From contig OZ024762.1 of the NCBI GenBank assembly GCA_964016885.1, forward strand, positions 13,330,001-13,394,000: DNA of 64,000 nucleotides, read 5' to 3'. Shown piece after piece: positions 21,581-46,812 of this stretch. Below the pieces are notes generated by a model. It did not search any database. It saw nothing but the letters and a program-made list of their open reading frames with translations, and was not told the origin of the DNA. The position numbers and the translations under genes were made by a program. Position 1 is the stretch's first letter; each line of letters opens with the position of its first letter. The DNA comes from Eledone cirrhosa. Its lineage: Eukaryota.

Positions 21581-23610
21581 AAAAACATTTGTAGACACCA
21601 CTGAGGAAGGGGCAGCAGGATTGAGAAGAGGTGTAGTGGGAGTAGATGATGTGAGGAGGGTGGAGATCTGGAGGAGGAGGAGGTGAGAGGAGGAAGTGAG
21701 AGGAGATGATGAATGGAAGGTGTTGTAGGAGATTTAGAAGGGGAGGGAGGGGTGGGTGGGAGGAGGAGGTGTAGGGGGAGAAGATGATGAAAGGAAGATG
21801 GAGGAGGGAAGAGGAGGGAGAGGAAGAGTGTGTCGTCTGCTCCAGTCAGTTGTAAGTCTTACATCTTACACCTAATGACCTTGGTGGTATGTGTCGGTGG
21901 TATGGTGGTGGTGGTGGTGGTAGTGGTGGTATGTGTCGGTGGTATGGTGGTGGTGGTGGTAGTGGTGGTATGGTGGTGGTGGTGTTGATGGTAGTGGTGG
22001 TATGGTGGTGGTATGGTGGTAGTGGTGGTATGGTGGTGGTAGTGGTGGTGTCGTTGGTGGTAATGGTGGTGGTATGGTGGTAGTGGGGGTAGTGGTGGTA
22101 GTGGTGGTAATGGTGGTAGTGGTAGTGGTGGTAGTGGTGGTATCGGTGGTGGTAATGGTTGTGGTGATGGTATTGTGGTAGTGGTGGTGTCGGTGGTGGT
22201 GGTGGTATGGTGTATGTGGTGGTGGTATATATGGTGGTGGTATGGTAGTGGTGGTAGTGTAGTATGGTGTATGTGGTGTAGTATGGTGGTGTATGTGGTG
22301 GTGTAGGTGATAGTAAGCTGTGCTATATCAATGATATTCCTTACAATAACAAGTTACTCCTAATCTTGTATTTCATCCAGTTAACATCTACACACCGTCA
22401 CTATCTAACGACGATGATAACGGTGATAACGGTGATGAAGACGATAACGACGATGATAACGATAACAACGATAACGACGATGAAGACGATAACGACGATG
22501 ATAACGACGATGAAGACGATAACAACGATAACGACGATGAAGACGATAACAACGATAACGACGATGAAGACGATAACGACGATGATAACGACGATGAAGA
22601 CGATAACAACGATAACGACGATGAAGACGATAACAACGATAACGACGATGATAACGACGATAACGACGATGAAGACGATAACAACGATAACGACGATGAA
22701 GACGATAACGACGATGAAGGCGATAACAACGATAACGACGATTAAGACGATAACGATGATGATAACGACGATAACGACGATGAAGACGATAACAACGGTA
22801 ACAACGATGACGAGGATAACGACGATAACGACGATGACGACGATAACGACGATGATAACGACGATAACGGCGATAACGACGACAATAACGAAGATGATAA
22901 TGATGAAGAAAGTTAAAGAAAAGAAAGCAAGAAGGAAAAGATGAAGCCGCCATTAAAGAGCGAACAACTGTCAGCCATCTTCCGACTTTAGCTTGGTCAT
23001 GTGACAGAGAAAGGCAAGCAGAGTCACGTGTGTTGTCCTCGTAAGATGGCCAATCACTGAGGTGACAGTTAAGAGGCGAGAGGTCAAGTGGATTGGGGCA
23101 AATATTTAGTGGCACATCACCTCTGGAGACTGATGTAGAGGTGGGGGTGGGGAGAGGAAGAGGATGGAGGTGGGAAGGGGGGAATGGAGGAGAGAGGGTG
23201 GAGGGAAGGAGACCTGTAAGTGATGGAGATGATAGAGAGGAGAGGGAAGTTGATAGAGAGAAAAGGAAAGGGAGATGACCGGATGGAAATGTAAAGAGAA
23301 AAGGAGAGCGGGAGAGAGAGATAGGTGGAGGGGGAAGTAGAGAGAGATGAGGAAGAGAGAGGGTGGAAGGGAGAGGTGAGAGAGGTGGAAGGGAGATGAG
23401 AGAGGAAAGGAGTGAGTAGGAAGAATTGGTGAGGGCGTAGAGGGATTGGTGGAGGTGTGGAGGGGGTCGGGGAGAGAGATTAATTTGACACTTGAGGTTA
23501 ATAGATTCAATATGAGACAGGCTTTCATTCGTTTCGTGAATTCAGTTGGTGTTGTTATTGTTGTTGTTTGTATATCATGCTGATTGTATATATATATATA
23601 TATATATATA

Positions 23611-24011
23611 CTAGCAGGTGTACCCGGCGTTGCTCGGGAAATGAATGACAGCCTGAATTGTTCACGGTCGTTTATGGCTTAGCTAGCAATTTCTGAGTGC
23701 ATGTCAGCTTATGGGCTAGCCAATGAAAGATCACCTCAATAGCACGTGCCAAGTCCTTCTAGTACTTCAAAAGTTAAAAGGAGACTAGTATTTGTACACA
23801 GACAGATACACACACAAAATCGATATTTCGGCCATAACATCGATTTTTTTTTCAAATTTGTTTTTGTCCAAAACCTGCTCTGGCATATAAGCAACATGTG
23901 TGCCAAATTTGGTTGAAATCGGCCTAGTACTTAAAAAGTTAGAAGGAGCCTAGTATTTGTACACAGACAGACAGACAGACACACAGACCGACTTGCTTTT
24001 ATATATATAGA
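23611..24011 (-). mobile_element. Non-autonomous Helitron
   Basis: On - strand: 5' TC terminus, subterminal hairpin CCCGAGCAACGCCGGG, 3' CTAG terminus, inserted between A and T; internal (CAGA)n. Confidence 0.75.
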
Positions 24012-24014
24012 TAT

Positions 24015-24192
24015 ATATAAATTTCGTATTTCTAAAGAAACAAGGTATGATTACAGGTAAACATTTAGAGAGCCGTAGCTATGCAACAAAAAAAACATGG
24101 ATAACGCCCTCTAGTGGTGTCCAGCAGAAGCAAGGGGGACAATCGTTGATGCATTTCAGACTTAACTGGTCCTCATCAAGACGACCCCACCC

Positions 24193-24223
<31 letters not shown>

Positions 24224-24512
24224 AATTGAGCCAACTTATATAGCTTCATATACAAATGAGATTAATCAGCTCATGTACACAGACAAGAAAACCGTATATT
24301 CTCGCCTGTTTTCAAAGTCCAGGAGTTGTAAGAGTGGGTGGGATCGTCCTGACGAGAATCAGTTCAGTTCGAAATGCACATCGACGATTGTCCCCCTTGC
24401 TTCTGCTGGACACCACCAGGTGGCGATAGCCGCCGGTGTTTTTGCATAGTTACGGCTTTCTAAATGTTTATTTATAAACATACCGTATTTCTTTAGAAAT
24501 ACAAAATTCTAT
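24015..24512. mobile_element. Diverged foldback element with an HHR and a CTCF-consensus motif on each arm
   Basis: Arms ~24015-24193 and ~24335-24512 are reverse complements; HHRs at 24343-24388 (+) and ~24142-24186 (-). Confidence 0.8.
24343..24388 (+). ncRNA. Canonical-core type I hammerhead motif
   Basis: ATCGTC-CTGACGA-GAAT(CAGTTCA)GTTC-GAAA-TGCACA-TC|GACGAT: perfect 6-bp stem I, AUC cleavage triplet. Confidence 0.85.
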
Positions 24513-24558
<46 letters not shown>

Positions 24559-26085: not shown

Positions 26086-26204
26086 ACGAAGGTCTTAGCG
26101 AGCCAGGTGGAACTCGTCAAATAGGACCAAGGAAACAATGTGTCCATTGGTCTTTCCGTTTGCTAATACGATCTACCTATCGCGAATCCTGGCAGAAAAA
26201 GGGA

Positions 26205-26912
26205 AACGTGAAATAAAGTGTCTTGCTGAAGGACACAGTGGATCGGAAGAACGTGAAATAAAGTGTCTTGCTGAAGGACACAGTGGACTGGAACAACGTA
26301 AAATAAAGTGTCTTGCTGAAGGACACAGTGGACTGGAACAACGTGAAATAAAGTGTCTTGCTGAAGGACACAGTGGACTGGAACAACGTGAAATAAAGTG
26401 TTTTGCTGAAGGACACAGTGGATCGGAAGAACGTGAAATAAAGTGTCTTGCTGAAGGACACAGTGGACTGGAACAACGTGAAATAAAGTGTCTTGCTGAA
26501 GGACACAGTGGACTGGAACAACGTGAAATAAAGTGTCTTGCTGAAGGACACAGTGGACTGGAACAACGTGAAATAAAGTGTCTTGCTGAAGGACACAGTG
26601 GATCGGAAGAACGTGAAATAAAGTGTCTTGCTGAAGGACACAGTGGACTGGAACAACGTGAAATAAAGTGTCTTGCTGAAGGACACAGTGGACTGGAACA
26701 ACGTGAAATAAAGTGTCTTGCTGAAGGACACAGTGGACTGGAACAACGTGAAATAAAGTGTCTTGCTGAAGGACACAGTGGATCGGAAGAACGTGAAATA
26801 AAGTGTCTTGCTGAAGGACACAGTGGATTGGAAGAACGTGAAATAAAGGGTCTTGCTGAAGGACACAGTGGACTGGAACAGCGTGAAATAAAGTGTCTTG
26901 CTCAAGGACACA
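26205..26912. repeat. 45-bp tandem repeat (~16 copies) derived from the SINE family A core
   Basis: Unit AACGTGAAATAAAGTGTCTTGCTGAAGGACACAGTGGACTGGAAC matches the SINE at 28452-28497. Confidence 0.92.
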
Positions 26913-26980
26913 CTGGTAGTATTCCAATACTGGAATTGAATAATCAAGACCGTAGCGGTATGTCATATATCAAATCATAT

Positions 26981-27180
26981 ATTTTATCTGATGAGGACGT
27001 ACTTAAACACCATAGTACCTTTGAAATATGTATAATAAAGTATATATTTTGATTATGAGAATATTTTTCATTTGTTAACATTTTGAATAATAATAAAAAC
27101 TCCAGGAAAACCCCTTGTTGAGTGCTTCTAATCTATTGTAAAATTGTATTCGTTGAGTAATCAACGAACCATACTAATCT
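26981..27180 (+). mobile_element. Single-arm HHR element of the ATTTTAT family
   Basis: ATTTTAT-CTGATGA (26988-26994)...GAAA (27023-27026)-TATGTA-TA|ATAAAG, then the family tail CTCCAG..GTTGAGTGCT. Confidence 0.7.
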
Positions 27181-28232: not shown

Positions 28233-28570
28233 AAGAAGAAGACCCCCTTCGGTCATGAATGACCATGTGATTTGCACCTAGAAAGTTTCCCTCCGAGGCA
28301 CAAGTCTGGGTAAGGTTGTTTTGAGGAAGACCAGCAGTCGCCCATACATACGAGTCTTCCCTCTCCACGCCACTGATGAGGTCCAAGGGAAAGGCAATGG
28401 CCAATATAACATGGCACCAGTGACGTCGCAACTCATTTCGACAGATGAGTAAACTGGAGCAACGTGAAATAAAGTGTCTTGCTCAAGGAAACAACACATC
28501 ACCCGGTCCGAGAGTTGAACTCACAACCTTTTAATTGCAACTCCAATGCTCTAAGCCATGCGCCTTCACT
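28233..28570 (-). mobile_element. tRNA-derived SINE family A, near full length
   Basis: Box A and B, CORE-like domain, and 3' GGTCATTCATGACC shared with 55790-56130. Confidence 0.85.

Positions 28571-30848: not shown

Positions 30849-46812
<15,964 letters not shown>

What the first reader, a model, noticed from the sequence alone, without database searches (positions are those of the whole stretch)
24105..24425. Ribozyme foldback carrying a divergent pair of CTCF-consensus motifs
Seen: about 30 nt downstream of each HHR cleavage site is a match to the CTCF core CCASYAGRKGGCR: CCACTAGAGGGCG on - (24105-24117) and CCACCAGGTGGCG on + (24413-24425). The copies differ at three positions, all degenerate positions of the consensus (Y, R, K). 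Established: divergent CTCF sites typify loop/TAD boundaries in vertebrates, CTCF is present in most bilaterians, and TEs can spread CTCF sites. Inference: a palindromic retroelement would deliver a ready-made bidirectional insulator, here between a promoter-like island (22940-23130) and PGM. With only three differences, the pattern could be chance.
Basis: partly seen in the sequence, partly recalled or inferred. Interest (0 to 1): 0.75.

Follow-up and report, generated by a model that had tools for sequence, protein, structure and literature searches.

The report
Retrozyme hairpin mimicking CTCF sites
Two copies of a common jumping repeat with a predicted self-cutting RNA motif sit back to back here, each with a perfect match to the binding motif of the genome-folding protein CTCF; the repeat supplies about a third of such matches in this genome, but the match decays like neutral DNA and is likely a by-product of an RNA hairpin rather than a working insulator.

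Summary
The two 13-mers are real and divergent. They lie in two copies of a ~330-nt, non-coding, Penelope-type hammerhead repeat (non-LTR retrozyme; thousands of copies). The foldback is not one palindromic element. The arms belong to different subfamilies (14/14 and 13/14 diagnostic sites) with a (TA)n tract between them, so most likely two insertions into one microsatellite. The motif is the 5' strand of an RNA hairpin whose K position covaries with its partner across four subfamilies. Across 107 copies picked without regard to the motif it decays no slower than the rest of the element (10.0% vs 8.1%). The commonest subfamily and an older one break the consensus. What survives: the family gives at least 774 of the genome's 2,440 perfect CTCF cores; close opposite-strand pairs are always divergent (15 vs 0), as Penelope 5' inversions predict; and the genome encodes an 11-finger CTCF. 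Binding is untested. The scan noted two-armed retrozymes of other unit lengths in this genome before, not this family. Interest 0.35.

The parts
24020..24193 (-). Left arm: 5'-truncated copy of the hammerhead retrozyme, subfamily B
   Evidence: 87-91% identical to other genomic copies; 13 of 14 diagnostic columns are B
24105..24117 (-). CTCF-consensus 13-mer of the left arm; its hairpin partner strand is decayed in this copy
24142..24185 (-). Type I hammerhead of the left arm, likely inactive: first core base C is T and the first helix I pair is a mismatch
   Evidence: sequence against family columns; inactivity inferred
24194..24219 (.). (TA)n tract between the arms, likely remnant of the shared target microsatellite
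   Evidence: absent from the junctions of 8 of 8 other two-armed loci printed
24220..24511 (+). Right arm: near-unit-length copy of the retrozyme, subfamily A
   Evidence: 89-94% identical to the best other copies; 14 of 14 diagnostic columns are A
24343..24388 (+). Type I hammerhead of the right arm with minimal helix III; predicted cleavage after 24382
   Evidence: core words in sequence; helix I and II covariation; cleavage not tested
24318..24410 (+). Long stem enclosing the hammerhead (24318-24325 pairing with 24403-24410)
   Evidence: 97% of cells paired over 9 pairs, 2 with double changes; fold
24413..24425 (+). CTCF-consensus 13-mer of the right arm
24419..24434 (+). Six-pair RNA hairpin with a four-base loop; its 5' strand is positions 7-12 of the CTCF-like motif
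23998..24019 (.). Outer (TA)n flank of the left arm
24512..24558 (.). Outer (TA)n flank of the right arm
22930..23140 (.).
   Evidence: one match genome-wide
30849..31094 (+). First coding exon of phosphoglucomutase (context only), 6.3 kb downstream
   Evidence: PF02878 match; ATG

Best explanation
The foldback is two copies of a non-coding hammerhead repeat from different subfamilies, likely inserted independently and in opposite orientation into one (TA)n microsatellite by a Penelope-type reverse transcriptase, and the CTCF-like 13-mer is likely a by-product of a GC-rich RNA hairpin of the repeat rather than a selected insulator. Steps. (1) Shown: a 317-339-nt unit occurs in thousands of copies as 5'-truncated monomers, tandem dimers and two-armed inversions ending in (TA)n. 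(2) Shown by covariation: hammerhead helices, an enclosing stem and a hairpin 30-50 nt past the cleavage site are kept as paired structure between subfamilies. (3) Inferred: transcripts self-cleave and are copied in trans by a Penelope-like element that targets TA repeats. (4) Inferred from the geometry: Penelope-type 5' inversions join copies head to head, so any word downstream of the ribozyme ends up in divergent pairs. (5) Shown: after insertion the motif mutates like its flanks. (6) Untested: unmethylated, accessible copies may well bind CTCF, as passengers.
For: Different subfamilies: arms 82% identical vs 89-90% within subfamilies; 14/14 and 13/14 diagnostic sites. In 8 of 8 other two-armed loci printed, both arms carry the same subfamily word and join with no TA tract (16 loci given, 9 printed with the window's). 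Neutral decay: motif 131/1310 (10.0%) vs rest 1103/13656 (8.1%) in 107 copies anchored outside the motif; non-CpG G/C columns 9.6% vs 8.3%, p=0.25. Score-selected sets: A 8.0 vs 5.9%, B 4.8 vs 5.4%, C 14.9 vs 8.6%. Only 14 of 99 anchored copies carry the exact consensus. Subfamily words: A CC(A/G)CCAGGTGGCG, B CCACCAGAGGGCG, D TCACCAGAGGGCG, C CCGCTAGACGGCG; 8/13 invariant vs 68/98 elsewhere, p=0.54; 3 of 5 variable positions are degenerate ones, p=0.25. D outnumbers A+B in exact sites, 1,025 vs 774. K position covaries: T-G/T-A in 17 of 19 A, G-C in 15 of 20 B and 16 of 18 D, C-G in 13 of 28 C; hairpin 80.8% paired, 0 of 500 shuffles as high, slid controls 20-59%. In the oldest copies a hairpin persists while the CCA half is gone (L135, L196, L197, L211). 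Inverted 5'-truncated copies and TA targeting are described for Penelope-like elements.
Against: A first pass gave fewer non-CpG G/C changes in the motif than outside (7.5 vs 11.4%, p=0.011; 9.9 vs 17.7%, p=0.017). This vanished once non-homologous ends and the C-run were excluded. CpG decay inside the motif runs towards the consensus 37 times and away 24 times (p=0.12). The R position is unpaired (A.C) in 32 of 38 B and D copies, so pairing does not explain it. The YAGRKGGC half is kept in nearly all subfamilies. In the left arm the motif is intact while its hairpin partner is decayed. Covariation counts reflect about four subfamily-level events, not 84 independent ones. Arm identity alone does not separate the window (0.84) from L173, L021 and L010 (0.85-0.87). 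A constrained minority of copies (under about 10%) would be invisible to these tests. No autonomous Penelope partner sharing this sequence was found.
Confidence: 0.72

Rival explanations
1. Exapted insulators (first reader, widened to the family): the motif arose in the repeat, CTCF binds many copies, and a minority, especially divergent pairs like this one, now act as chromatin boundaries, as mouse B2 SINE sites do.
For: At least 774 of 2,440 perfect cores lie in this family; 15 divergent vs 0 convergent close pairs; CTCF orthologue with fingers 3-5 nearly identical to human; CTCF-like motifs reported at squid TAD borders and coleoid loop anchors; B2-borne sites act as barriers as often as old sites.
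Against: No excess conservation. The divergent geometry follows from the insertion mechanism. Orientation-dependent CTCF function is not established outside vertebrates: no orientation pattern in echinoderms, none identified in squid.
Confidence: 0.13
2. Selection on the source elements: the repeat recruits CTCF to keep its own master copies open or transcribed, so the motif is kept between subfamilies although inserted copies decay neutrally.
For: All four subfamily words lie within two changes of the consensus; R is not explained by pairing in B and D; an octamer-like word is also kept upstream of the ribozyme (seen; not counted), hinting at an internal promoter.
Against: The commonest subfamily carries T at the first C, subfamily C carries C at K, the oldest copies lack the CCA half, and the motif is no more invariant than the rest of the RNA.
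Confidence: 0.1
3. On the geometry only: the foldback came from one Penelope-type event in which the enzyme copied a B RNA on one side of the break and an A RNA on the other.
For: Two-armed divergent insertions are common in this family, and the spacing here (308 nt) is in their range (111-468 nt).
Against: A 26-nt TA tract separates the arms, unlike 8 of 8 other junctions; those 8 are all same-subfamily; both arms stop at the short 3' end, whereas 4 of 6 other two-armed loci with both ends readable have one short and one long end.
Confidence: 0.15

Closest known systems
Metazoan non-LTR retrozymes (Cervera and de la Pena 2020, PMC7229834, passages read; Li, Clavereau and Pollet 2026, 10.64898/2026.07.22.740005, parts 1-3 of 5 read)
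   Same: Non-coding unit of 317-339 nt, GC under 50%, one type I hammerhead per unit, head-to-tail dimers and dispersed monomers, thousands of copies; mussel units are about 350-390 bp.
   Different: Mostly truncated monomers and two-armed inversions rather than long arrays; carries a CTCF-consensus word, which the passages read do not mention; cleavage and circular RNA not shown here.
Penelope-like element pseudo-LTRs (Craig et al. 2021, 10.1101/2021.04.23.441226, passages read)
   Same: 5' truncation, partial tandems, inverted 5'-truncated copy at the 5' end, two 3' ends about 40 nt apart, (TA)n targets, minimal-helix-III hammerhead.
   Different: No RT or GIY-YIG ORF found fused to the unit; no autonomous partner identified.
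SINE-borne CTCF sites: rodent B2, dog SINEC-Cf, opossum MAR_Mdo (Schmidt et al. 2012, PMC3368268, passages read)
   Same: One non-autonomous retroelement family supplies over-represented motif words, hundreds to thousands of sites.
   Different: Those were defined by ChIP-seq; here only motif matches. The carrier is a ribozyme repeat in an invertebrate, the motif overlaps a covarying RNA hairpin, and the insertion mechanism yields divergent pairs.

Membership tests
Non-LTR retrozyme | Type I hammerhead core and helices | tested here: met
   Core words in most copies; helices I and II 90-92% paired with 3 double-change pairs each. Rfam gave no ribozyme match.
Non-LTR retrozyme | Short non-coding unit of about 150-450 bp in head-to-tail repeats | tested here: met
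   Six tandem intervals of 317-339 nt; no Pfam match in the three frames over the element that were scanned.
Non-LTR retrozyme | Multi-copy dispersal, GC under 50% | tested here: met
   2,469 exact hits of a 16-mer; 2,813 candidates; one natural unit is 44.5% GC.
Non-LTR retrozyme | Self-cleavage and linear/circular monomer RNA | not testable with these tools
   Needs in vitro transcription or raw RNA reads.
Penelope-mobilised element | 5' truncation, inverted 5' copies, TA targets, two 3' ends | tested here: met
   (63 long, 53 short, 38 run-on ends among 154).
Penelope-mobilised element | Sequence shared with the pLTR of an autonomous element | tested here: inconclusive
   Penelope-like ORF pieces near 3 of 13 flanking ORFs scanned give only sub-threshold RVT_1 or GIY-YIG hits; the two contexts read (L224, L134) are separated from the unit by microsatellites.
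CTCF site / insulator | Core motif match | tested here: met
CTCF site / insulator | CTCF protein with conserved core-reading fingers in the genome | tested here: met
   Single locus on C12, 11 fingers, best PDB match human CTCF, E=3e-112. Fingers 6 and 7 differ at several helix positions. That the central fingers read the core is recalled.
CTCF site / insulator | Motif conserved above flanks | tested here: not met
   (family level; this one locus could not be compared across species).
CTCF site / insulator | Second (M2/upstream) motif | not tested
   No matrix on hand; not required (dog and opossum repeat sites lack it).
CTCF site / insulator | Occupancy and insulation in vivo | not testable with these tools
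   No ChIP, ATAC or Hi-C data available.
Single palindromic (foldback) element | Arms from one template, transposed as a unit | tested here: not met
   Arms from different subfamilies with a TA tract between.

The most novel reading that the evidence does not exclude
A ribozyme-bearing retrozyme has seeded a third or more of this genome's perfect CTCF cores, and the Penelope inversion mechanism stamps about one in six of them out as ready-made divergent pairs. CTCF binds them and a subset forms boundaries: an invertebrate counterpart of the B2 SINE expansion, with boundary geometry written by the transposition mechanism itself.
Probability: 0.15. Interest if true: 0.75.

Novelty: new member of a known kind. 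Interest (0 to 1): 0.35.

Why it matters
Whether CTCF works by oriented loop extrusion outside vertebrates is open, and in cephalopods the evidence read here is motif enrichment only. One repeat family giving at least 32% of perfect cores, with a built-in divergent bias, is a confound for such analyses in this genome. It is also a natural experiment: subfamilies A and B (perfect core), D (first C changed) and C (core arises by CpG decay) share the same backbone and targets, so one CUT&Tag plus Micro-C data set could test binding, orientation and insulation with internal controls. As the evidence stands, this locus itself is ordinary repeat pile-up.

Tried and rejected
Rfam: no match at gathering score in the window, only microsatellite-driven chance hits at E up to 10. 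One palindromic element: rejected. Three degenerate differences as evidence of constraint: rejected. In one search, 18 of 99 anchored copies were left out (old subfamilies or no homologous upstream part), one copy per set served as reference, and a few copies occur in two sets. Directional CpG decay: 37 vs 24, not significant (subfamily A position 2 left out). Autonomous Penelope partner: not found among 13 flanking ORFs scanned, picked from the 90 printed of 172. Sequencing runs for the island: no RNA holder listed; laying X1-X3 gave no contigs; neither is evidence. The octamer tally returned nothing because of a faulty pattern, so the octamer is uncounted. The structure count used a mis-registered string and is void; one search is the valid one. 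Literature searches: hammerhead + retrozyme + octopus, 3 papers (2 listed), none on this; CTCF + Penelope + hammerhead, 0 papers; CTCF + ChIP-seq + mollusc + motif + repeat, 7 papers, and CTCF motif + transposable element + spiralia, 7 papers (3 listed), none on a CTCF-bearing retrozyme by listing. Supplementary Data 8-10 of PMC13652810 (loop-anchor motifs) were not read and may bear on CTCF and repeats. A sequence look-up in earlier scan notes found nothing.

Full report
1. Observation. Both 13-mers are present at the stated coordinates, divergent, 308 nt apart, and are the only exact matches to CCASYAGRKGGCR in the window. They lie in an imperfect inverted repeat, 24020-24193 and 24335-24508, 81% identical, with (TA)n at both outer ends and between the arms. 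Each starts 30 nt after a predicted hammerhead cleavage site. Rfam does not detect the ribozyme, but the core words are present in most family copies. Across 42 copies, helices I and II are 90-92% paired with double changes, above all 500 shuffles and all slid controls. The genome is 3.0 Gb in 1,796 contigs. That it is an octopus is my inference from size, chromosome-scale contigs and repeat make-up; no call confirms it.

2. The element. Each arm finds thousands of relatives (2,813 and 1,587 candidates; 2,469 exact hits of one 16-mer). Copies are 5'-truncated monomers, head-to-tail dimers with 317-339-nt spacing and two-armed inversions, ending in (TA)n at one of two 3' ends about 40 nt apart. 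This matches non-LTR retrozymes and Penelope-type insertion structure. At least four subfamilies exist, called A, B, C and D here, plus older remnants.

3. The foldback is a composite. Identity is 89-90% within A or B and 82% between them; the two arms are 82% identical. At 14 diagnostic columns the right arm is A at 14 and the left arm B at 13. Of 16 loci examined for divergent pairs, 9 were printed. In the 8 other than the window's, both arms carry the same subfamily word and join without a TA tract. Both arms here stop at the short 3' end, whereas 4 of 6 other two-armed loci with readable ends have one short and one long end. Two insertions into one microsatellite is the simplest reading. 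TA tracts in this genome often hold several unrelated inserts. A single event using two templates is not excluded.

4. Divergent pairs are nonetheless a family trait. Among the first 100 family motif sites on contig C1 there are 9 divergent, 0 convergent and 1 tandem pair within 1 kb. Among the first 100 anchor sites there are 6, 0 and 4. These are 15 distinct divergent pairs against 0 convergent (p=6e-5). This is what 5' inversion predicts for any word downstream of the ribozyme and needs no selection. These lists cover only part of one chromosome.

5. The family is a major source of perfect cores. The genome has 2,440 exact matches against 259 for the reversed control. Of these, 774 (31.7%) have the family's five upstream bases, a lower bound. 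Of the first 30 matches, 13 are A/B-type copies and 2 more lie in subfamily C copies. The remainder is still up to 6.4 times the control and includes other repeat families. A single CTCF gene with 11 fingers lies on C12; human CTCF is its best solved match, with fingers 3-5 nearly identical and fingers 6-7 partly changed. Binding to these words is therefore plausible.

6. The motif is not under detectable constraint. In 107 copies anchored on sequence outside the motif, substitutions are 10.0% in the motif and 8.1% elsewhere; for non-CpG G/C columns 9.6% vs 8.3%. Score-selected sets agree. A first pass suggested slower change at non-CpG G/C motif columns (p=0.011 and 0.017), but it counted non-homologous ends and an unstable C-run as flank, and the effect vanished on cleaning. 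CpG decay in the motif goes towards the consensus 37 times and away 24 times (p=0.12). Only 14 of 99 anchored copies carry the exact consensus. Between subfamilies 8 of 13 motif columns are invariant, against 68 of 98 elsewhere (p=0.54); 3 of 5 variable positions are degenerate ones (p=0.25). Subfamily D, with T at the first C, has more exact sites than A and B together (1,025 vs 774). Subfamily C has C at the K position. The oldest copies keep a hairpin but lack the CCA half. Limits: the samples lean to younger copies, and a constrained minority would not show.

7. Why the word looks as it does. Motif positions 7-12 are the 5' strand of a six-pair hairpin. Over 84 distinct copies 80.8% of cells pair, above all 500 shuffles, while slid controls give 20-59%. 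RNAalifold independently predicts the three central pairs. These counts reflect about four evolutionary events.

8. Context. The 22930-23140 island is single-copy. PGM's ATG is at 30849, with repeats filling the gap. If the island is PGM's promoter the element lies in a 5' intron rather than between units; this is undetermined.

9. Comparison and novelty. The element works like, and on the testable features is, a non-LTR retrozyme with Penelope-type insertion marks; cleavage and circles are untested. As a motif carrier it resembles B2 and other SINEs, but those were shown by ChIP-seq. Orientation-dependent CTCF function is not established in invertebrates, and cephalopod evidence is motif enrichment. 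My searches found no paper joining CTCF with Penelope or hammerhead repeats (held library only). Papers were seen as keyword passages, except the 2026 preprint (parts 1-3 of 5). Papers on masking of repeat-borne CTCF sites were seen as search listings only.

10. Verdict. Observation partly confirmed; interpretation partly supported at family level, not at this locus. New member of a known kind; interest 0.35. Most novel reading (bound, boundary-forming divergent pairs made by the transposition mechanism): probability 0.15, interest 0.75.

Noticed in passing
window 24250-24257 and family copies (e.g. L005, L013, L218-L243): An octamer-type word (ATGCAAAT; label recalled) lies about 90 nt upstream of the hammerhead in many copies of subfamilies A-D and older ones; the right arm carries a one-base variant. 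Possible internal promoter element; not counted.
   Followed up: no
L075, L219, L243 (subfamily C): CpG decay at two sites turns the subfamily C word into a perfect CTCF core (2 of 28 copies, plus L075): sites are born by decay.
   Followed up: partly
L063/L064, L079/L085/L086, L067/L076/L081: At least three other repeat families also carry exact CTCF cores; L085 and L086 are a 98% identical divergent pair 5.5 kb apart.
   Followed up: no
G000:C1:143348669-143796151: Six same-strand family copies with the subfamily B word, spaced 59-117 kb apart; possibly a tandemly duplicated gene cluster with one motif per unit.
   Followed up: no
window 22930-23140: Single-copy island with several transcription-factor-like words (YY1-like, two E-boxes, CCAAT; labels recalled); a promoter or enhancer candidate.
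   Followed up: partly
window 31189 and 60079; L097, L134, L224, L027, L083: (TA)n tracts host pieces of other repeats and Penelope-like ORF fragments (sub-threshold RVT_1 and GIY-YIG hits), so they act as shared landing pads.
   Followed up: partly
L245 (G000:C12:30707294-30710325): CTCF's N-terminal region and all 11 fingers lie in one 876-codon open frame.
   Followed up: partly
L151 (G000:C21:5350644-5354060): A second phosphohexomutase-family gene as one 632-codon open frame.
   Followed up: no
window 26200-27000: A 45-nt tandem array derived from a SINE-like fragment that also occurs once near 28460.
   Followed up: no
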